Source: a virus. Taken from it: a DNA stretch of 35,981 bases. The DNA is taken from the UHGV virus genome UHGV-0263263; one strand, 5' to 3'. Numbering within the stretch: position 1 is the stretch's first letter; each line of letters opens with the position of its first letter. Below are positions 4,935 through 16,221 of the stretch, piece by piece. Both the position numbers and the translations under genes were made by a program. The notes below the pieces were generated by a model. That model was not told the origin of the DNA and made no database searches. It was given only the letters and a program-made list of their open reading frames with translations.

Positions 4935-6325
4935 GCTATACCTCTCTTTTTCATGGCATCGAGCAGGATGTCCTGCACCGTTCGTTTTGAGTTGCGCCGC
5001 TCCATCACCATTTCGTCCATAGTGTCGGCGGCGATAATGTGGTGAATGAACACCGGGCGGTTGTGTCCGGCCTGAATCTGCCGGGTTGGCCCGATGCGTT
5101 CGATAATTTGCTGGTACTGCTCCAGATCCCACCAGTGCGAGAAAAACACCAGAATGTTGCCGCCGTCCTGCATATTCAGGCCGTGGCCTGCGCTTGCCGG
5201 GTGCGCGAACAGGACCGGTATCTTTCCGGCGTTCCAGTCGCGCAGCGTCTGTGGATCCTGGTCGAGGTGGCGACCGCGAGGAAATGCTTTAAGCAGACGC
5301 TCAAGGTCGTGTTTCCAGTGGTAGGCCACCAGCACTGGTGCGCCAGCGGCTTCGGTGAGAATACTGTCCAGCGCCTGCAGCTTCGCGTCGTGCAGTTCGG
5401 ACCAGCTCCCTGCGTCGTCGGTGTATACCGCGCCGCTGGCAATTTGCAGACACTTCACTGTTTTTGCCGCGGCGTTCGGCGCTTCGATACCTTCGCCGTT
5501 CAGCTCGAGGAACATTTCTTTTTCCATTTCGCGATACTGCTGGCTGGCCTTCGGCGGCATGTCCACGCGGATCACGTTATGGATGGGCTCTTTGATATCG
5601 AACCAGTCGGCGGCGTCCAGGGAGATAGTCACGTCAGCCAGTGCACGCTGTATTTCGTCCTGCGAATGGGCGAACGGCTCCAGCTTCGTCCAGCTCTGCC
5701 CCGGAAACTGTATTGAGTTGAACCAGCGGGAAGTAAACGCGCCGTAGGTGCGCCCGAGGCGCTGCCCCTGATCCACAAACCACGCTTGCCCCCACAAATC
5801 TACCAGGCCGTTAGGCGCTGGCGTACCGGTGAGATTCATCCAGCGCCGGACGTGCTTATGTGCCACCTTGCCCAGCGCCGCCGCGCGCTTACCGCCACCG
5901 CGCAGCCGGAAGGATTTCAGCCGGGTGCTTTCGTCGGGAATGACGGTACCGAACGGCCAGCGGCCGCCAAGCTCTTCCACCAGCCAGACCAGATTGTCGT
6001 AGTTGATGGTAAACACGCTGGCGTTGCTGTTTGCCAGCGCCGCAGCGCGCGCTTTGGCATTACCGACAATCGGCTGCACCTCGATATTGCGCAGATGCCC
6101 CCATTTCACCGCTTCATCCGGCCAGGTACTGGCCGCCACGCGCAGCGGTGCGAGGACCAGCGCGGGCTGAGTCTCCGCTCCCGCCATAAAGAGATCTTCC
6201 AGCGTGGTGAGCGTCGCCACGGTTTTACCCATGCCCATGCCCGCCCAGATGTTGCAGCGCAGGATGTCGATTTCGTGGTTGATGATGAGGTCTTGATAAG
6301 GGCGGGGGGTAAATACTGAACTCAC
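4931..6325 (-). CDS. SNF2/DEAD-box family ATP-dependent helicase
   Basis: Walker A GMGMGKT, DEXH-like PDES, helicase C-terminal motifs. 464 aa. Confidence 0.8.
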   Translation of the reverse strand: MSSVFTPRPYQDLIINHEIDILRCNIWAGMGMGKTVATLTTLEDLFMAGAETQPALVLAPLRVAASTWPDEAVKWGHLRNIEVQPIVGNAKARAAALANSNASVFTINYDNLVWLVEELGGRWPFGTVIPDESTRLKSFRLRGGGKRAAALGKVAHKHVRRWMNLTGTPAPNGLVDLWGQAWFVDQGQRLGRTYGAFTSRWFNSIQFPGQSWTKLEPFAHSQDEIQRALADVTISLDAADWFDIKEPIHNVIRVDMPPKASQQYREMEKEMFLELNGEGIEAPNAAAKTVKCLQIASGAVYTDDAGSWSELHDAKLQALDSILTEAAGAPVLVAYHWKHDLERLLKAFPRGRHLDQDPQTLRDWNAGKIPVLFAHPASAGHGLNMQDGGNILVFFSHWWDLEQYQQIIERIGPTRQIQAGHNRPVFIHHIIAADTMDEMVMERRNSKRTVQDILLDAMKKRGIA

Positions 6326-7535: not shown

Positions 7536-9596
7536 TCACTCTTTTCTGTAATGGTACGCCTCGAAACCGCCTGCGTTCAGCGGGATATCGGGTGCCCATT
7601 CGGGGTTAGTGGAAAGCAGCGCGGAAAGCGCCTTATCGTTGAAATCGTCAGTATCCGGTGCTTCTGTGATCACTTCATCGTGTACTGTCAGCACAATGCT
7701 GTAACCGGCATCCTCGATCAGCGGCATGTTTCCGGCCAGAACGTCGCGGGCAGCCGCCTGAGTGACGTTTTCCACCAGCTTTCCGCCGTAGGTTTTGAGC
7801 CTCTGCCATTTGCGCGAGTAGGAGTTAACGCCCTGATAGGTGATGTTTCCCTTCTCGATTGACGGGGACGGGTAGCACAGCGCGCGCCCGGACGGCAGCT
7901 GGATGCGCAGCCATGCGCCATCACGACGGACTTTGAGATAACCGCAGTACAGCGTTTTTTGCGGGGTCGCGATGGCGGCGCGGACGGTGCGCTCGAGCTC
8001 GTACCAGAAATCGCAGGTCGCCGGGTGAGCTCTGCGCCACAGCCTCTTAAGCGAGTCACACGCGATGAATACGCGTTCTGACAGACCAAAGGTCGACTTA
8101 CGTTTAACCGATTCGTCGTACCAGCTTTTCGCCTCGCGGATGACATCGCGGGGAATGTTCGGTAGTGCGGCGTTTGCCAGCTCGTCGAGGTCGAGGCCGT
8201 AGACCAGAGCGAAGGTCAGGAACGCCGCAACACCACCGCCGAAGCCGAGGCCCAGCTCCATCACCTTGCCGATCTGACGCTGGTATTTATCAACATCGTC
8301 CGGCGAGATATTGAAGGCGCGGGCGTAGGCCAGTTTATACAGATCCGGCCCGGTCCCCTCGTCGTACTCCCGGAATGCGTCCAGCTTCCACTGTTCGCCA
8401 GCAAGCCAGGCCAGTTTTCGCCCTTCGATGTTCGACAGGTCGCTAACCACCAGCTTTTTGCCTTCCGGCGCCATGATGCAGCCGCGCAGCGCTGAGCTGG
8501 TCAGCTCCATGATGTTATCGAACAGCAGATCGGCGCATCCGGCTTTAAGCGCCTCGATGCCCTCGTCTATCTGGTCCTGCTCAAGTGAAGGGCGGGGCAG
8601 GTTCTGGGGCTGGAACAACCGCCCGGCCCAGCGCCCGGTTCGCGATGCGCCGCAGAACTGCAGTGTGCCGCGCAGACGCCCGTCACTGCTCACGCCCTTC
8701 ATCAGCGATTTGTACTTACTGGTGCTGGTGGTGCTGGCCTGCAGGCGGATAGCCAGCAGCTCTTTCACCGCAGACGGCAAATCAGGATCCGCCATACGGC
8801 GCTCCAGCGTGCTGCGCTGCATGTCCGGCAGCTCCACCCCGTACGATTCAACAATGTGCGTAATCAGCGCATCGCGCTGCGTGGCCGCCTGCACTTCGCC
8901 ATCGGTCATCACCTGCGTGCGTTTCGCCAGGCGTTTTTGCTCGAGGTCTACCGCCTCGATCGCCGCCTGCGCAAGCTGCACATCCATGCAAACGCCGCGG
9001 TCGTTGATCTGCTGGTCACGATGCCAGAGCGCCAACTCTGCACCCTTATAATTCCACTTCGGCAGGCGCTTATGCACTTCGCGCATGGCCTCGATATCAA
9101 GGCCAGCGTAAGCAACAAAGCGCCGCCATTCTTCCGGGTGGGTTTTGCTGGTGGCCCGTCGCAGTTTGCTGTTCTTCGGACGTGGCTTACAGAACAGCTG
9201 GATAAGCGCTTTACCTTCTTTGTCCTTCGCCTTGTCCTGCGGGACGCCCAGAACCTCGCAGAGCGCACCCAGCGCGCCGGGGAGGCCGTGCGCCAGCGCC
9301 TGCACCATCGTGTCGCGCCATTGTGCTACATCGGGGACCAGTTCCGGATGGTCATGCCGCATAACTGTACGGTCGAAATGTGAGTTATGCGCCCACACCT
9401 CAATCGCCGGATCGCCCAGAGCCTGATACAACATCGGCGGCATGACAGTGCCCGCCGTTAAATCCCAAACTCTGACGGGGCCATCGTCAATAGCCCAGGC
9501 CATCAGCATTACCTCCACCTTTTCAGCATAGGCATGGGTGCCGTTGTTAATAGGCACCTCGCTGAAGGTTTCGAGGTCAATCCATAATTTTTCCAT
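7536..9596 (-). CDS. Family A DNA polymerase with N-terminal 3'-5' exonuclease (T7 gp5-like)
   Basis: Exo motif WIDLETFS. Pol motifs include the C-terminal VHDEV. About 686 aa from MEKLW, which has a GAGGA SD; the listed ORF start at 9641 lacks an SD. Confidence 0.85.
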
Positions 9597-9635
9597 ACTC
9601 AATCCTCGCGGGTGCTTTGCGAAAAGGGACGCTCT

Positions 9636-9664
9636 TTGCAAAACACCCGGCGCATGGCCGGGTG
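9636..9664 (-). terminator. Intrinsic terminator/attenuator between the SSB and DNA polymerase genes
   Basis: Minus-strand CACCCGGC-catgc-GCCGGGTG (8-bp stem) followed by TTTTGC. A second imperfect hairpin follows (TTTGCAAAGAGCGTCCCTTTTCGCAAAG). Confidence 0.55.
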
Positions 9665-11541: not shown

Positions 11542-12462
11542 TTAACCCTCCAGTGCTTTTTCAGCCTGAGCGATCACGTCTGCGAGGTTCTCGTCAGCAA
11601 CTTCGCCGAGTTTTTTGGCACCCTGTTTTTCCAGAATCGCCACCGCTTCGGCGCGGTAACCACCTTTCGCCAGCTGGAGGATCATTCCTTCGGCCTGTTT
11701 ACGCAGCGCCGCAAAATCGGTCTGCGCGCCTGCATTATCCCCGGCATCATCACCCGTTTCGGTACCGCCTTTTGCCGCGTTTTTACGCGCAAAATCTTCC
11801 TGCAGCTGGAGGTATTCAACTTTGGTGATTTCGATATGGCCCTTTTTAAGCAGTTCGTTCAGCTTGCGTAGGGTATGAAGCTCGCTGGCGGCGGAGCCAT
11901 CAACGTTCTTGCAGTAGAAGGGCCCGGTGCGTTCTTCATCCTTACCGCTGGTTTTCGGCTTCACTTCATGGCGACCGTCTGCGGGTGCGTCCAGTAAACG
12001 CTCGGCAAACTCACGGCGTGCCGCGATGGTTGGTAAGTCGTCCCAGTAGCGCAGGATGTTACGCGACAGGTCAAGTAATGCTGGCTTGTTAAGATGGCCA
12101 GCGCGTTTAACACCCTGCAGGGCGCTGTCCAGCGCGTCGATCTGCACAACGCGCTTATCGCCTTCGGCGTCGCGATAATCAACAACGCGCTGAACCATCG
12201 TTTCGCTGAGCTCCTGCGCGTCCGGGTAGAATGCAGCCAGAGCGATAATGTCGCTGAACTCCAGATCATCCAGCGTAACCTTGCGGATAACGGTATTTTC
12301 CGCTTTGGTTTCCGGTACCGTTTCGCGGTATTCCTGAACCTGCGCCACGGTGTCCGGGCGAAGAGCGACACCAGAGGCCAGGGCAGTGATAAGGCGTTCA
12401 AGCAGGGCGTTATGCTGCGTCAGCAGTTGGTTGTTAAGTTCGAGACTGGTTTCTAAGCTCAT
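11542..12462 (-). CDS. Hypothetical early protein (306 aa)
   Basis: Long ORF in operon, coupled to neighbours. No recognisable motif. Confidence 0.5.
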
Positions 12463-12608
12463 ACTGCGGTCCTCGCTACAAGGAGAATGAAGGTAATAGC
12501 CAGGCCGAACGCAGTAGCGAGGGCCAGACCGGTAAAGATGTCGAAATGTTTGCGGCGCCAGCGGAGCACGTCGCGCCCCGTCAGCCGGTGGAGGTGTTCA
12601 GGTTTCAT
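12459..12608 (-). CDS. Small membrane protein (49 aa), first gene of the leftward early operon
   Basis: GGAG SD and ATG at 12608 immediately after the terminator. C-terminal TM (LALATAFGLAITFILLV). Confidence 0.5.
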   Translation of the reverse strand: MKPEHLHRLTGRDVLRWRRKHFDIFTGLALATAFGLAITFILLVARTAV

Positions 12609-12620
12609 CGGTAGTGCTCC

Positions 12621-12646
12621 AAAAAAGAGCCCCTCTTGCGAGGGGC
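12621..12646 (-). terminator. Rho-independent terminator in the PL leader, immediately upstream of the first early-left gene
   Basis: Minus-strand GCCCCTCGCAAGAGGGGC followed by TCTTTTTT. Confidence 0.8.
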
Positions 12647-12875
12647 AAAGACTACACACAGCAATGCAATGGACTTAATGAAGCGCCTGACAGACGCTTG
12701 ATAAGTTCACTCCGCCCCATCATCGGGGCGTTTCAACTTGCGTGACTTATCAGCTCGTCGCGGTGTGGTCCTCTACGCTTACCGTACGCATACGGACTCG
12801 GCGCTTACCTCGATCCCATCGGGTGCCATTTCGTTTTGCCAGGAGTACTGCGGCTTACCTGTCACGCGGTTCTGT

Positions 12876-12888
12876 TTGTTAAAGAGCG
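12876..12888 (-). promoter_or_regulatory. boxA antitermination element (CGCTCTTTAACAA) in the PL leader RNA
   Basis: 12/13 match to E. coli rrn boxA TGCTCTTTAACAA and to the lambda nut boxA core CGCTCTT.A. Lies about 45 nt downstream of the predicted PL start. Confidence 0.65.
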
Positions 12889-12929
12889 ATTGCTTAACCC
12901 GAAAATGCATTGAATTAAGCGATAACGCA

Positions 12930-12959
12930 TTTATATGCTAACTCGCATTATCCGGTCAA
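12930..12959 (-). promoter_or_regulatory. PL-like sigma70 promoter for the leftward early operon
   Basis: Minus strand TTGACC (12959-12954), 18-bp spacer, TATAAA (12935-12930). Flanked by ATGCAT/ATGCGTTATCGC operator-like repeats. Confidence 0.6.
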
Positions 12960-12980
12960 CCCAAAAATGCATTATATCGC

Positions 12981-13007
12981 AAAAAAGAAAGGCCGCTTTA
13001 TGCGGCC
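12981..13007 (-). terminator. Rho-independent terminator of the repressor gene
   Basis: Minus-strand GGCCGC-ataaa-GCGGCC followed by TTTCTTTTTT, 22 nt after the repressor stop. Confidence 0.8.
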
Positions 13008-13029
13008 TGTGTTTAACGCTTTGATTTTA

Positions 13030-13707
13030 TTAAGGACGCCATAGCGACGATTTAGCTATGCCTGCTATATACTGGATTTTAGTGACAGAACTCTTAGGTA
13101 ATCTGATAGGAGCGTGGTTTTCGTTTACCGGGAGTAAATGGTAAAAGCCGTCGCGTTCAAAAAGAAAAGTCTTGACCATTACTTCACCCTGTTCGGTGAC
13201 TACTAGCACTTCATCTCCTGGGTGGTAACCGTGGTTAGGTTCTATTATTACGAACTCACCTTCTTTGATACGAGGTACCATAGAATCGCCAACGCATTTT
13301 AGCGCGTATACATCTGCATCATATGAAGGCCATCTGATGTGGCCATCTCCATTACCAACCGGGTATTGCATATCCGTCCAGAACCCTCCATTACCCAGCT
13401 GGGTATTACCCAATACCGGTACTTCCCTGAATTCAAAATCATAAGGGTCACCGTCCACGTCAACTACTGTTCGTGGTTTTTCGGCTTGTAGGTCGCATTC
13501 CACCAGGTCCACAGGGGAAATTTTAAAAAACTCAGCAATGTGTTTCAGGGTAATGTACTTCGGATCTTTAATCTCTCCAGCAAGCATGCGCTGCAGCGTA
13601 GACTGCTGCATTTTTACTTTTCTGGATAGCTCCGTCACGCTAGAGATACCTGCTTTCTCCATTAGGTATTTGATGTTTTTCTGAACAACATCGTATTCGT
13701 ATGCCAT
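13030..13707 (-). CDS. CI-like repressor: N-terminal HTH (XRE) plus C-terminal S24 LexA-like autopeptidase
   Basis: HTH SSVTELSRKVKMQQSTLQRMLAG. C-terminal GDSM (Ser nucleophile) ... K dyad and an Ala-Gly-like cleavage region. Confidence 0.85.
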   Translation of the reverse strand: MAYEYDVVQKNIKYLMEKAGISSVTELSRKVKMQQSTLQRMLAGEIKDPKYITLKHIAEFFKISPVDLVECDLQAEKPRTVVDVDGDPYDFEFREVPVLGNTQLGNGGFWTDMQYPVGNGDGHIRWPSYDADVYALKCVGDSMVPRIKEGEFVIIEPNHGYHPGDEVLVVTEQGEVMVKTFLFERDGFYHLLPVNENHAPIRLPKSSVTKIQYIAGIAKSSLWRP

Positions 13708-13756: not shown

Positions 13757-13848
13757 TTTAGCGCGTTTATTTAAAGCGTTTCTGGGTTGTTTATCAATGC
13801 GTTTTCGGATAGATTTGCTTCATAACATAAACGATGGAGCATTTCGCC

Positions 13849-14049
13849 ATGATTGAGTTAACTCCTAAAGACATGGTTCAGTCCCTGATTGATGCAGGGT
13901 ACACCCAAAGCCAGATTGCCGAAGCTACCGGTGTAGCGCAATCCTCAATTTGCCGACTGCTTACTGGTGTGCATACAGATCCGCGCATATCTACCGTCAG
14001 GGCTTTAGAGAATATGCTGCGTACCGTCGGCGAATCCAAAAAGGCGTAA
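13849..14049 (+). CDS. Cro-like HTH regulator
   Basis: 66 aa from the ATG at 13849 (GGAG SD); the listed ORF starts at 13834. HTH QSQIAEATGVAQSSICRLL. Divergent from the repressor. Confidence 0.6.
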   Translation: MIELTPKDMVQSLIDAGYTQSQIAEATGVAQSSICRLLTGVHTDPRISTVRALENMLRTVGESKKA

Positions 14050-14052
14050 CCC

Positions 14053-16221
14053 ATGCCAGAGAAAAAGATCTGGGGGGCGACGCCTGACGAATGGTTCCAC
14101 TTCGATCTGGTGCTGGGGCGTACTGACCAGCTGCTGCCGGTCGTGTGTAACCCGGGCGCGACCATATCCCCGAATAGCAAACTCAAAATGCTTGGCAAAA
14201 CGCCAAGCCTGTATAACCGCGACCGACTGGCTACCGGCATTGCTCAGTGGACCGAGCATGTTGTTACTGAGCATGACTTTGCCCGCTGGTCTAACGAACC
14301 GGATTACGGCATCTGCGTGCGCACGGGCCACGGCTGGCTGGCGCTGGACTGCGACAGCGAAGACGAAGATATCCAGGCCGATATTCACAAAACGCTGGTG
14401 CAGCTGCTGGGCGAGCTGCCGCCGCGTCGCTGGCGCGCTAACAGCAACAAATGCCTGTACCTGCTGGCCGTTGACGGCGATTTTCGTAAGCGCATCCACC
14501 GTCTGGCGGGTGATATGGGGATTATCGAGCTGCTGGCGAACGGCCAACAGTTCGTTGCCTGCGGTACGCACAGCAGCGGCTCACGTATTGAATGGGACGG
14601 CGGTCTGCCGGACGAGCCACCAGCCATAACAGCTGACCAGCTCGAAACGCTGTGGCAGCGCCTGGCGGATCAGCTGCCTGTGTCGGTCACCACCGAAGCG
14701 GGCAGCACGAAGATGCGCGACCGCTCAACGTTCACACCCGGTGCGACGGACGATACTGCCGATTACCTCGACGCCCATGGCTGGACGCTGCTTGATGGCG
14801 CGAACGGTGAGCGCTATATCCGCTGCCCGTTTGAGGACGGCCACAGCACCGGTGGCGACCCGACCAGTACGGTTTACTTTCCGGGTGGTACCGCGGGCTT
14901 TGAGCAGGGGCATTTTAAGTGCCTGCATGCCAGCTGCGCGCACCGCGATGACGGTGATTTCCTTAATGCCATCGGGATCCGCAACGACGATTTCGAAGAC
15001 CTGACCAGCACCGACGTTGCAGAGCCATTACCGCTGCCGGCGTTCGAGCGCGATAAGTGGGGCCGCATCGAGGCCACCATCAGCAACGCGGCCAAAGCGG
15101 TTGTGCGTCCTGACTTCGTGGACATCGATATCCGCTTCGACCAGTTCCGCGACGAAATCATGTTCGCCCAGGCGGGATCCGGCCAGTGGCAGGCATTCAC
15201 CGATGCGGACTATGCGCGCCTGCGCATCACGATGGAAAAGCGCGGCTTTAAACCTGTAGGGCGCGAGCTCATCCGCGACGTGGTGCTGCTGGCCGCTGAC
15301 GAACAGCCATTTGATTCGGCTACTACCTGGCTGAACGGGCTGGAGTGGGACGGCGTGCCGCGCATCGAATCTTTCTACCACACACACTTCGGTACCGCTG
15401 ACACGCCATACACCCGCGCGGTGTCCATGTACATGTGGACCGCGCTGGCGGGCAGGGTGCTGGAGCCCGGCGTTAAAGCCGATATGGTGCCGATCCTCGT
15501 CGGGCCGCAGGGCTGCGGTAAGTCCTCCGGCGTGGAGGCTTTATCACCCGACCCGGCATTCTTCACCGAGATCTCATTCGCTGAGAAAGACGACGACCTC
15601 GCACGTAAGATGCGCGGGCGCCTGGTGGCGGAGATAGGCGAGCTGCGTGGCCTCAACACCAAAGAGCTGGAAAGCATCAAGGCCTTCGTGACGCGCACGC
15701 ATGAGAACTGGATCCCTAAATACCGGGAGTTCGCTACCCAGTTCCCGCGTCGGCTGGTGTTCGTCGGTACCACTAACGAGGACGAATTCCTCGCTGACAA
15801 GACCGGTAACCGCCGGTGGTTGCCCGTGGAGGTGTCGAAAGTCGACGTGAAAGCGATAAAAACCGACCTCCTTTTGCTGTGGGCGGAGTCCCGCGAGACG
15901 TTTAAGCGTCTCGGCGGTATCCAGTTCCGCGATGCTGAGCGGCTCGGTGCGAGTGTCCATGAGCAGTACACCATTAAGGACGCTTGGCTCGAGACGGTAG
16001 AGAAGTGGCTCGACACGCCTGACCTGATGACTAACGACATTCCGCGAAATTGCGAATTTTTACGCGCTAGCGACGTTCTGCGCGATGCGATTGGCTTAAA
16101 CCCTGAGAAGGTATCAAGACGCGAACAAATGCGAATTAGCGGAGTTTTGCAAAATTGCGGGTATAAGGCCAGCCGCGAAACCATTAATGGTAAGCAACAG
16201 CGGGTTTTTATTAAGCAATAG
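14053..16221 (+). CDS. Primase-helicase: N-terminal prim-pol-like primase with zinc-binding CxxH..C..C region, C-terminal P-loop NTPase (VirE / P4-alpha-like)
   Basis: 722 aa. Cys/His cluster CPFEDGHSTGG...HFKCLHASCAHRDDGD. Walker A VGPQGCGKSS. Followed immediately by the iteron origin. Confidence 0.8.
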   Translation: MPEKKIWGATPDEWFHFDLVLGRTDQLLPVVCNPGATISPNSKLKMLGKTPSLYNRDRLATGIAQWTEHVVTEHDFARWSNEPDYGICVRTGHGWLALDCDSEDEDIQADIHKTLVQLLGELPPRRWRANSNKCLYLLAVDGDFRKRIHRLAGDMGIIELLANGQQFVACGTHSSGSRIEWDGGLPDEPPAITADQLETLWQRLADQLPVSVTTEAGSTKMRDRSTFTPGATDDTADYLDAHGWTLLDGANGERYIRCPFEDGHSTGGDPTSTVYFPGGTAGFEQGHFKCLHASCAHRDDGDFLNAIGIRNDDFEDLTSTDVAEPLPLPAFERDKWGRIEATISNAAKAVVRPDFVDIDIRFDQFRDEIMFAQAGSGQWQAFTDADYARLRITMEKRGFKPVGRELIRDVVLLAADEQPFDSATTWLNGLEWDGVPRIESFYHTHFGTADTPYTRAVSMYMWTALAGRVLEPGVKADMVPILVGPQGCGKSSGVEALSPDPAFFTEISFAEKDDDLARKMRGRLVAEIGELRGLNTKELESIKAFVTRTHENWIPKYREFATQFPRRLVFVGTTNEDEFLADKTGNRRWLPVEVSKVDVKAIKTDLLLLWAESRETFKRLGGIQFRDAERLGASVHEQYTIKDAWLETVEKWLDTPDLMTNDIPRNCEFLRASDVLRDAIGLNPEKVSRREQMRISGVLQNCGYKASRETINGKQQRVFIKQ

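What the first reader, a model, noticed from the sequence alone, without database searches (positions are those of the whole stretch)
12607..12960. PL leader carries an rrn-type boxA and an intrinsic terminator ahead of the first early gene, with no N-like ORF: candidate factor-independent or host-Nus antitermination
The leftward early promoter (TTGACC, 18 bp, TATAAA) is followed about 45 nt later by CGCTCTTTAACAA. That is a 12/13 match to the E. coli rrn boxA and to the lambda nut boxA core. Strong hairpins follow (CGCCCC-gatgat-GGGGCG; AAGCG…CGCTT). A canonical terminator (GCCCCTCGCAAGAGGGGC plus T6) sits immediately before the SD of the first gene. A second terminator lies between the SSB and polymerase genes. 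Expressing the roughly 8-kb replication operon therefore requires processive antitermination. No Arg-rich N-like ORF exists between PL and the first terminator; the largest leader ORF is 23 codons without an SD. That points to an RNA-based (HK022 put-like) or rrn-like, host-Nus-factor-dependent mechanism.
Basis: partly seen in the sequence, partly recalled or inferred. Interest (0 to 1): 0.75.

Follow-up and report, generated by a model that had tools for sequence, protein, structure and literature searches.

The report
BoxA-led antiterminator-like leader RNA cassette
The leader of this temperate phage's leftward early operon carries an undescribed, conserved ~175-nt structured RNA that starts with a ribosomal-type boxA, sits exactly where sister prophages carry the HK022 put antiterminator RNA, and is followed by a terminator that is really the 3' half of an RprA-like small RNA.

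Summary
The sequence features are real. The promoter, an exact rrn-type boxA (12888-12876, minus strand), the hairpins and a strong terminator just before gene 1 are all present.

BoxA is the first 13 nt of a ~175-nt RNA cassette (12888-12713). About 75 distinct versions occur in enterobacterial prophages, including 104 E. coli genomes. Five sequence types keep the same helices through compensatory changes: 26 of 35 pairs, with 97% of cells paired.

The cassette always follows the repressor gene at the head of the leftward operon, in at least three unrelated phage backbones. No N-like protein is present, and none travels with it.

In two different backbones, sister prophages with homologous flanks carry an HK022 putL homologue in the same slot. 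The cassette itself matches neither put, lambda nutL nor any Rfam family. Intrinsic terminators lie 0.24-3 kb downstream.

The best reading is an N-independent, probably Nus-factor-assisted, processive antitermination RNA. This is inferred, not demonstrated.

The "terminator" is also the seed and terminator of an RprA-like sRNA: 24 nt are identical to E. coli rprA.

Two details were corrected. The largest leader ORF is 43 codons, not 23. The second terminator has only four U.

The parts
13030..13707 (-). CI/LexA-type repressor gene (HTH + peptidase S24), same strand as the leader
   Evidence: Pfam Peptidase_S24 at 7.7e-16, plus HTH_26 and HTH_3.
12990..13008 (-). Intrinsic terminator ending the repressor transcript
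   Evidence: AGGCCGC-ATAAA-GCGGCCT followed by TTCTTTTTT.
12960..12973 (-). Operator-like repeat overlapping the -35
   Evidence: AATGCATTTTTGGG. Four of the five window matches cluster at PL and at PR/PRM.
12930..12959 (-). Early leftward promoter: TTGACC, 18 nt, TATAAA
   Evidence: Read. The same hexamers occur in Yersinia phage YeP4.
12898..12911 (-). Second operator-like repeat, just downstream of the start site
   Evidence: AATGCATTTTCGGG.
12876..12888 (-). boxA CGCTCTTTAACAA, the 5' boundary of the conserved cassette
   Evidence: Unique exact match in the window. It matches 12 of 13 bases of rrnH boxA. Conservation among homologues begins exactly here, whereas the upstream flanks fall into 15 or more classes.
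12740..12867 (-). Structured domain closed by helix P1. Its parts are: P1 12867-12861/12746-12740; P1b 12859-12857/12754-12752; P2 12854-12847/12764-12757; conserved single strand CCUGGCAAAACGAAAUGGC 12843-12825; hairpin Pa 12821-12811; hairpin Pb 12804-12775; conserved AGAGGAC 12774-12768.
   Evidence: Covariation counts. RNAalifold recovers the helices without my structure as input. Covariance model R1 scores 231 bits here.
12713..12730 (-). Hairpin P3 (CGCCCC-GAUGAU-GGGGCG), the 3' boundary of the cassette
   Evidence: Five of its six pairs show compensatory changes across the types. Homology with put-bearing sister prophages resumes immediately after it.
12619..12720 (-). RprA-like sRNA module. 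It comprises the hairpin at 12699-12681, the seed plus terminator at 12665-12621, the terminator stem at 12646-12629 and the U-tract at 12628-12621.
   Evidence: Rfam RF00034 scores 52.1 bits, E = 1e-5, below the gathering score of 70. It is 87% identical to chromosomal rprA in 5424 E. coli genomes. A 24-nt stretch is identical. Across 48 phage versions the seed is nearly invariant while the stems covary.
12459..12620 (-). SD GGAG (12620-12617) and gene 1 (ATG 12608; 49 aa, small membrane protein, phrog_11981). This is the first gene of the replication operon.
   Evidence: No promoter-like site lies on this strand between 12930 and 4750.
9640..9664 (-). Terminator-like hairpin between the Enc34-type SSB gene and the DNA polymerase gene (8-bp stem, then UUUU)
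   Evidence: SSB family assignment.

Best explanation
The promoter at 12959-12930 is the repressor-controlled leftward early promoter. Its transcript begins with a mobile RNA cassette (12888-12713). The cassette consists of a consensus boxA, an 8-nt spacer, a 128-nt multi-helix domain closed by a 7-bp helix, and a terminal GC hairpin.

I propose that this cassette is a cis-acting, N-protein-independent processive antitermination signal.

Proposed mechanism (inferred, not shown):
- BoxA recruits host NusB/NusE, and through them NusA, NusG and SuhB, to the elongating polymerase.
- The structured domain takes the place of boxB plus N. It either contacts RNA polymerase or a Nus factor directly, as put RNA does.
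- The modified polymerase reads through the strong RprA-like terminator 65 nt downstream.
- It also reads through Rho-dependent sites in the untranslated leader and the weaker hairpin before the polymerase gene.
- The ~8-kb replication operon is then expressed.

Shown here: sequence, structure, conservation, genomic position, cassette exchange with put, absence of N, and downstream terminators.

Inferred: Nus factor binding and antitermination activity.

Transcripts that do stop at the terminator would release an RprA-like sRNA.
For: 1. The cassette is a discrete conserved unit.
- Conservation starts at boxA and ends at P3, while both flanks vary.
- It occurs in 104 of 5426 E. coli genomes and in many IMG/VR phage contigs (51 alone, more).
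- It also occurs in Citrobacter, Pseudocitrobacter, Trabulsiella and Pluralibacter.

2. The RNA structure is real.
- In a model-fitted alignment of 42 distinct sequences of five types, 97% of cells pair and 26 of 35 pairs show double compensatory changes. Slid controls give at most 6 pairs and 19-43% pairing.
- Whole hairpins are replaced by different sequences that still pair.
- RNAalifold on a plain MAFFT alignment recovers P1, P2, Pb and P3.
- The G-U pairs fix the strand as that of the PL transcript.

3. The position is constant. The cassette always lies downstream of an S24/HTH repressor gene on the same strand. The backbones differ and share no protein with the window within +-5 kb: a lambdoid type with O/P and gam-bet-exo and no N, and a type with CII-like and ParB-like genes.

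4. The cassette exchanges with put.
- Lambdoid prophages L259 and L260 share L004's leader start (46 of 46 nt) and downstream sequence (93%). They carry an HK022 putL homologue instead of the cassette.
- E. coli O55:H7 CB9615 has the window-type backbone with a put homologue. ETEC H10407 has the same backbone with the cassette.
- Flank homology breaks exactly at boxA and just after P3.

5. Intrinsic terminators lie downstream at variable distances, from 0.24 kb to about 3 kb, in all three contexts examined. In the window no promoter-like site follows the terminator.

6. No N-like ORF was found.
Against: - There are no expression or functional data.
- By established knowledge, rrn-type boxA/Nus complexes counter Rho-dependent termination much better than intrinsic termination (background in PMC7665894). 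BoxA alone would therefore not explain read-through.
- There is only one copy per phage, and no boxA or cassette in the rightward operon. This differs from both nut and put.
- Single-sequence folding energy is not unusual: z = -0.74 and -1.31.
- One natural variant, L119, lacks hairpin Pb.
- Efficient antitermination would reduce production of the RprA-like sRNA from the same transcript.
- An intrinsic terminator may simply be leaky.
Confidence: 0.6

Rival explanations
1. BoxA acts only as a Nus-factor anti-Rho device, as in rRNA and CRISPR-array leaders. It protects the long untranslated leader, which is about 300 nt here and up to about 900 nt in relatives. The structured domain would have another role, such as RNA stability or processing of the RprA-like sRNA. 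The intrinsic terminator would simply be partially leaky.
For: BoxA fits the Nus consensus perfectly (PMC5725501). BoxA near the 5' end of long non-coding transcripts is an established anti-Rho arrangement (PMC7665894). The leader is untranslated.
Against: This does not explain why 160 further nucleotides covary and travel with boxA as one cassette. It also does not explain why the cassette swaps precisely with put, a proven suppressor of both intrinsic and Rho-dependent termination (PMC9378689).
Confidence: 0.17
2. The cassette is a nut-type site for an unrecognised phage-encoded antiterminator protein encoded elsewhere in the genome.
For: BoxA followed by RNA structure is the nut layout. N-like proteins are small, divergent and easy to miss. 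For example, Gp17 of the mEp021 group was recognised only recently (PMC11893012).
Against: No protein is shared between the window and 18 lambdoid or 3 type-E loci that carry the cassette. No ARM-like ORF lies near the cassette. No N family appears among the window's small ORFs. The same slot is filled by put, which needs no protein, in sister phages.
Confidence: 0.1
3. The ~175-nt RNA is mainly a trans-acting or sequestering RNA, or a precursor scaffold for the RprA-like sRNA. It might, for example, bind a host RNA-binding protein through its conserved GGA and A-rich single strands. It would not be an elongation-control element.
For: The single-stranded motifs CCUGGCAAAACGAAAURGC and AGAGGA are invariant, and the Pa loop always contains GGA. 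An Hfq-type sRNA module follows in most window-type phages.
Against: The cassette occurs without any RprA-like module in the lambdoid, type-E and YeP4 contexts. It is always at the very start of the early operon. It exchanges with put.
Confidence: 0.1
4. The cassette is a local attenuator or riboswitch-like leader. Its alternative folding would decide whether the adjacent terminator hairpin forms.
For: A structured leader lies upstream of a terminator.
Against: The distance from the cassette to the first terminator varies from about 65 nt to about 750 nt in window-type phages and reaches about 3 kb in YeP4. Whole ORFs are inserted between them. No conserved anti-terminator pairing is possible across such spacing.
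Confidence: 0.03

Closest known systems
HK022 put RNAs (putL/putR), cis-acting factor-independent antiterminator RNAs
   Same: Both are RNA elements immediately downstream of the early promoter in temperate phages that lack N. Both are followed by terminators. The cassette occupies exactly the same slot, between homologous flanks, in two different backbones.
   Different: No sequence or structure similarity: model R1 scores at most 8 bits on the HK022 early region. The cassette is about 175 nt with a multi-helix junction, whereas put is about 70 nt with two stem-loops. The cassette carries a consensus boxA and put has none. There is one copy per phage, with no rightward copy.
Lambda-type nut sites with N protein
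   Same: Both have boxA (CGCTCTT..) early in the PL leader, downstream of the repressor gene and operators. Both have an RNA structure shortly after boxA.
   Different: There is no 15-nt boxB hairpin and no N-like protein. There is a single site only. Model R1 gives no real hit on the lambda PL-N region.
rrn leader antitermination and other cellular boxA leaders (suhB, CRISPR arrays), which use the NusB/E/A/G/SuhB complex
   Same: BoxA matches rrnH at 12 of 13 bases and fits GYTCTTTAANA perfectly (PMC5725501). No dedicated phage protein is needed. BoxA heads a long untranslated RNA.
   Different: The cellular systems lack the 128-nt domain and are known mainly to counter Rho. Here strong intrinsic terminators follow.
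RprA sRNA (Rfam RF00034), relevant to the terminator module only
   Same: A 24-nt stretch, ATTGCTGTGTGTAGTCTTTGCCC, is identical, and an intrinsic terminator with a U-tract follows. Identity is 87% over 45 nt.
   Different: The score is below Rfam's gathering threshold (52 versus 70 bits). The 5' two-thirds of RprA are not conserved. The module is embedded at the end of a phage operon leader rather than being a free-standing gene between ydiK and ydiL.

Membership tests
Lambda-type nut site | boxA motif in the early-operon leader | tested here: met
   CGCTCTTTAACAA at 12888-12876. Lambda nutL has CGCTCTTA.
Lambda-type nut site | boxB: a short hairpin with a purine-rich pentaloop a few nt after boxA | tested here: not met
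   After an 8-nt spacer comes the 7-bp helix P1, which closes a 128-nt domain. Model R1 gives no match to lambda nutL.
Lambda-type nut site | Cognate phage N-family (arginine-rich motif) protein | tested here: not met
   None appears in Pfam or PHROGs scans of the window's small ORFs. None appears among the leader ORFs or downstream in lambdoid carrier L004. No protein co-occurs with the cassette.
Lambda-type nut site | Sites in both the leftward and rightward early operons | tested here: not met
   A single boxA and a single cassette occur in the window and in L004.
HK022 put RNA | Homology to the ~70-nt two-stem-loop put sequence and structure | tested here: not met
   Model R1 scores at most 8 bits on HK022 24-34 kb. 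By contrast, true put homologues in L259 and L262 align readily with HK022 putL.
HK022 put RNA | Location just downstream of an early promoter in a phage lacking N | tested here: met
   The cassette occupies the same slot as put in sister prophages.
HK022 put RNA | Antitermination without any protein factor, through the beta-prime zinc-binding domain | not testable with these tools
   Requires in vitro transcription and rpoC mutants.
rrn-type Nus-factor antitermination leader | boxA matching GYTCTTTAANA | tested here: met
   Perfect match. It is identical to MG1655 rrnH boxA at 12 of 13 bases (consensus from PMC5725501). At least 60 of 75 distinct homologues match perfectly.
rrn-type Nus-factor antitermination leader | boxB hairpin upstream of boxA and GU-rich boxC just downstream | tested here: inconclusive
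   The window has no hairpin directly upstream of boxA. Type B (L004) has one at 4979-4996. The only GU-rich run, GCUGUGUGUAG, lies 210 nt downstream and belongs to the RprA-like module.
rrn-type Nus-factor antitermination leader | NusB/NusE binding and dependence on Nus factors | not testable with these tools
   Needs nusB, nusE and suhB mutants, or binding assays.
RprA sRNA (RF00034) | Score at or above the Rfam gathering threshold (70 bits) | tested here: not met
   52.1 bits in the window and 46-54 bits in relatives.
RprA sRNA (RF00034) | Conserved 3' single-stranded region plus an intrinsic terminator | tested here: met
   A 24-nt identical stretch and a terminator. The seed is nearly invariant across 48 phage versions while the stems covary.

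The most novel reading that the evidence does not exclude
The cassette is a third, previously undescribed class of phage early antitermination device. It would be a self-sufficient leader RNA that fuses a Nus-factor loading site (boxA) to a ~130-nt folded domain replacing boxB and N. It would be interchangeable in nature with put RNA. It would convert E. coli RNA polymerase to a form resistant to both intrinsic and Rho-dependent terminators. In this phage family it would also gate the release of a phage-borne RprA mimic.
Probability: 0.45. Interest if true: 0.85.

Novelty: new variant of a known kind. Interest (0 to 1): 0.75.

Why it matters
Only a handful of cis-acting RNAs are known to make bacterial RNA polymerase terminator-resistant. 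Put is the only one characterised in enterobacterial phages.

How the many N-less lambdoid and non-lambdoid prophages express their early operons is an open question. These include Stx-converting types such as the Stx2b prophage of STEC435. One recent paper simply guesses 'put-like' for such a phage (PMC12315714).

A compact, well-delimited cassette makes the question directly testable with simple reporters, because:
- it carries a perfect boxA;
- its helices are defined by covariation;
- put-bearing sister prophages provide a natural counterpart for swap experiments.

The cassette could show how Nus factors and a folded nascent RNA cooperate without N. It is present, unannotated, in about 2% of complete E. 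coli genomes.

The attached RprA-like module suggests that phages tap into an Hfq/RprA regulatory network on induction.

Tried and rejected
- Rfam at gathering thresholds found nothing in the window. The permissive scan gave only the sub-threshold RprA hit and noise.
- Single-sequence folding of the leader and of the cassette is no more stable than shuffles. The case for structure therefore rests on covariation alone.
- Model R1 found no second copy in the window. It found nothing in HK022, lambda or the rrnH leader.
- The Nus-dependent non-lambdoid mEpimmI phages were considered. They use an N-like protein, Gp17, with boxA/boxB nut sites, and are a different group.
- King et al. 2011 (J Bacteriol 193:5784, 'Newly discovered antiterminator RNAs') could not be read. 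I cannot exclude that it mentions this cassette. Its sequence strings occur in no held paper.
- The genome contigs and metagenome pattern scans returned mostly chance matches in unrelated phyla that lack boxA. These served as negative controls.
- Coding explanations were rejected. The 43-codon leader ORF and the Arg-rich 61-codon ORF inside the type-E cassette are not conserved between types, whereas the helices are.
- A local attenuator was rejected because the spacing to the terminator varies.
- A degenerate put remnant downstream of the cassette in L004 was considered. BLAST does not support it.
- A CsrA-binding reading of the conserved GGA motifs was noted but not tested.

Full report
**1. 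What is in the window**

The window is a temperate phage. On the minus strand, a CI/LexA-type repressor gene (13707-13030; HTH plus peptidase S24) ends at an intrinsic terminator (13008-12990).

Then comes a promoter: TTGACC, 18 nt, TATAAA (12959-12930). It is bracketed by two copies of AATGCATTTTYGGG. Two more copies lie in the divergent cro/repressor control region. Four of the five window matches cluster at these two places. This is therefore a repressor-controlled 'PL'.

The rightward arm encodes cro (13834-14049) and a large primase (14053-16221). The leftward operon encodes:
- a 49-aa membrane protein;
- a protein of unknown function (phrog_6784);
- a DUF2800/PD-(D/E)XK nuclease;
- an Enc34-type SSB;
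- a family A DNA polymerase, followed by HNH and helicase genes.

The closest relatives are Escherichia phage vB_EcoM-606R2, Yersinia phage YeP4 and many E. coli prophages. These include the Stx2b prophage of STEC435. Its layout fits the 'Eru10' replication type described in PMC8951638.

**2. Checking the observation**

- BoxA CGCTCTTTAACAA (12888-12876) is the only exact copy in the window.
- It matches 12 of 13 bases of the MG1655 rrnH boxA, which I read directly.
- It fits the published consensus GYTCTTTAANA (PMC5725501).
- Lambda nutL has CGCTCTTA.
- The terminator GCCCCUC-GCAA-GAGGGGC plus UCUUUUUU (12646-12621) abuts the SD and ATG of gene 1.

Two details were wrong.
- A 43-codon ATG ORF (12910-12779) exists in the leader. 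It has no SD and is not conserved.
- The 'second terminator' between the SSB and polymerase genes is a strong hairpin followed by only four U (9664-9640).

No promoter-like site lies on this strand between 12930 and 4750. Expression of the operon from PL therefore requires passage through the 12646 terminator.

**3. BoxA is the first 13 nt of a mobile, structured RNA cassette**

BLAST against 5426 complete E. coli genomes found a ~185-nt unannotated module in 104 of them. It begins at boxA and ends at the CGCCCC hairpin. Identity is 87-97%, and the promoters and downstream sequences differ.

Pattern scans that did not include boxA, together with one that did, gave about 75 distinct versions. 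Sources were IMG/VR phage contigs, Citrobacter, Pseudocitrobacter, Trabulsiella, Pluralibacter and two metagenome contigs. All real hits carry boxA at a fixed distance. Upstream flanks fall into at least 15 unrelated classes. Chance matches to the internal motif in unrelated phyla never have boxA.

**4. Structure**

Five sequence types exist:
- A, window-like;
- B, lambdoid;
- C;
- D, YeP4-like;
- E.

I derived a structure by hand from types A to C.
- P1: 7 bp, closing a 128-nt domain.
- P1b and P2: extensions of P1.
- A conserved single strand, CCUGGCAAAACGAAAURGC.
- Two hairpins, Pa and Pb.
- A conserved AGAGGA.
- A terminal hairpin, P3.

On the plain MAFFT alignment of 31 sequences, 97% of cells pair and 6 pairs show double changes.

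A covariance model built from this (R1) then detected the divergent types D and E. In these, P1, Pa, Pb and P3 have different sequences but still pair. For example, P1 is GCGUGAC/GUCACGC in the window, GCAUGAC/GUCAUGC in type E and GCACUG/CAGUGC in YeP4.

In the 42-sequence model-fitted alignment, 26 of 35 pairs have compensatory double changes. Slid controls give at most 6. That alignment leans towards the model. As a check, I ran RNAalifold on an independent MAFFT alignment of 11 sequences, with no structure supplied. It recovered P1, P1b, P2, the Pb hairpin and P3, with 11 covarying pairs.

G-U pairs place the structure on the PL transcript strand.

ORFs overlapping the cassette are not conserved between types. 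Single-sequence folding energies are unremarkable.

**5. Context**

The cassette always lies downstream of an S24/HTH repressor gene on the same strand, at the head of the leftward operon. The backbones are otherwise unrelated:
- the window type;
- true lambdoid prophages with O/P replication and gam-bet-exo, exactly where lambda has nutL-N (L004);
- a third type with CII-like and ParB-like genes.

tblastn of all window ORFs against 18 lambdoid and 3 type-E loci found no shared protein apart from pseudo-ORFs over the cassette itself.

No N-like protein was found in the window or downstream in L004.

There is one cassette per phage, and no boxA on the rightward side.

**6. The decisive comparison: natural exchange with put**

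Lambdoid prophages of E. coli L73 and EF7-18-51 share L004's PL leader start (46 of 46 nt) and downstream sequence (56 nt, 93%). They lack the cassette. In its place they have 92 nt that contain a clear homologue of HK022 putL. I located putL in the HK022 genome using the primers given in PMC9378689.

The same holds independently in the window-type backbone. E. coli O55:H7 CB9615 has a putL homologue between the promoter and the RprA-like terminator. ETEC H10407 has the cassette, scoring 230 bits. Flank homology breaks immediately before boxA or put and resumes immediately after P3 or put.

Put homologues occur in 133 E. coli genomes and the cassette in 104. The window-type backbone occurs in 153.

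Put is an experimentally proven, factor-independent suppressor of intrinsic and Rho-dependent termination (PMC9378689). Precise replacement of put by the cassette in two backbones is the strongest available evidence that the cassette performs the same task.

The cassette is not a put homologue. R1 scores at most 8 bits on the HK022 early region. It matches neither lambda's N leader nor the rrnH leader.

**7. Terminators**

Intrinsic terminators follow the cassette at variable distances.
- In window-type phages the distance from boxA is 0.24-0.93 kb, often with ORFs inserted between.
- In lambdoid L004 the distance is about 1.3 kb.
- In YeP4 there are two terminators about 3 kb away.

This fits a processive mechanism, not a local attenuator.

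**8. The terminator is part of an RprA-like module**

A permissive Rfam scan matched window 12720-12619 to RprA over the full model. The score was 52.1 bits against a gathering score of 70, with E = 1e-5.

The last 45 nt (12665-12621) are 87% identical to the annotated chromosomal rprA of 5424 E. coli genomes. The stretch ATTGCTGTGTGTAGTCTTTGCCC is identical.

In 71 loci (48 distinct versions) this seed is almost invariant. The upstream sequence varies freely, and the terminator stem changes by compensatory substitutions. This indicates selection on the seed rather than only on a terminator.

The 5' two-thirds of RprA are not conserved. From my own recollection of the RprA-rpoS pairing, the region that pairs with rpoS lies there, so I make no claim about targets.

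The module always sits just before gene 1 of window-type phages, sometimes as the 3' end of an inserted small gene (L005). It is absent from the lambdoid, type-E and YeP4 contexts, so it is separable from the cassette.

Erwinia N4-like phages carry a similar module.

I found no paper describing phage RprA-like RNAs.

**9. Mechanism and rivals**

Best-supported model (confidence about 0.6): the cassette is a cis-acting, N-independent processive antitermination RNA. BoxA loads NusB/E and its partners. The folded domain substitutes for boxB-N. The modified polymerase reads through the RprA-like terminator and later signals.

Binding and activity are inferred. Anatomy, conservation, context and the put exchange are shown.

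Rivals:
- BoxA as a pure anti-Rho device with an unrelated domain (0.17).
- A nut-type site for an unrecognised protein (0.10).
- A trans-acting or sequestering RNA, or an sRNA scaffold (0.10).
- A local attenuator (0.03).

Main caveats:
- There are no functional data.
- Nus/boxA complexes are known mainly to counter Rho.
- There is only a single copy per phage.
- One natural variant lacks Pb.

**10. Novelty**

The cassette is absent from Rfam 15. It is unannotated in every record examined. Its sequence appears in no held paper.

I classify the cassette as a new variant of a known kind, namely leader RNAs that make RNA polymerase terminator-resistant. It combines a nut or rrn feature (boxA) with the put-like property of needing no phage protein.

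Noticed in passing
window 12619-12720 (-); also L005 5487-5584, L003 5421-5530, L224 2960-3073: An RprA-like sRNA module lies at the end of the PL leader. A 24-nt stretch is identical to E. coli rprA and is followed by a terminator. Across 48 phage versions the seed is nearly invariant while the terminator stems covary. Its targets and its biogenesis (termination versus processing) are unknown.
   Followed up: partly
L236 541-647 (Erwinia phage Ea9-2, between the thymidylate synthase gene and gene 47A): Lytic N4-like Erwinia phages (Ea9-2, Frozen, Rexella, Gutmeister, Tellus) also carry an RprA-like seed plus terminator (47 bits). Phage capture of this sRNA domain is therefore not limited to the window's family.
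   Followed up: partly
L259 3098-3196, L260 3648-3746, L262 2030-2106: Unannotated HK022 putL homologues occur in E. coli prophages, including a non-lambdoid (primase/PolA) backbone in O55:H7 CB9615. BLAST finds such sequences in 133 of 5426 complete E. coli genomes.
   Followed up: partly
L119 6469-6626 (-): This natural variant of the cassette lacks hairpin Pb. The deletion lies exactly between two GGTAAGCG direct repeats. Either Pb is dispensable or this copy is defective.
   Followed up: no
window 12859-12853, 12809-12803, 12783-12777 (-): GGUAAGC occurs three times in the type-A cassette, at the 5' side of P1b/P2, before Pb and at the 3' side of Pb. The Pa loop always contains GGA, and a single-stranded AGAGGA is invariant. 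These could be protein-binding or tertiary-contact motifs. They remain unexplained.
   Followed up: no
L004 4979-4996: In the lambdoid (type B) version a GC hairpin, GGCGGACAGCAAGUCGCC, lies immediately upstream of boxA. This is the boxB-boxA order of rrn leaders. The boxA there is slightly off consensus (CTTCTTTAACA).
   Followed up: no
L003 9146-9340 (Stx2b prophage of E. coli STEC435): A P1/P7-type immunity module is inserted between the SSB and polymerase genes of a window-type prophage. It comprises C4 antisense RNA (70.6 bits), an isrK-like RNA and an Ant antirepressor gene. The window has only the terminator-like hairpin at that position.
   Followed up: no
window 9595-9641 (-): The mechanical ORF for the DNA polymerase starts at TTG 9641, inside the U-tract of the hairpin. 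An ATG at about 9595, preceded by GAGGA, is the more likely start. That leaves a ~78-nt intergenic region containing the hairpin.
   Followed up: no
window 12779-12910 (-): A 43-codon ATG ORF spans boxA and half of the domain. It has no SD, its start codon lies in the variable promoter flank, and it is absent from other contexts. It is most likely not a gene.
   Followed up: yes
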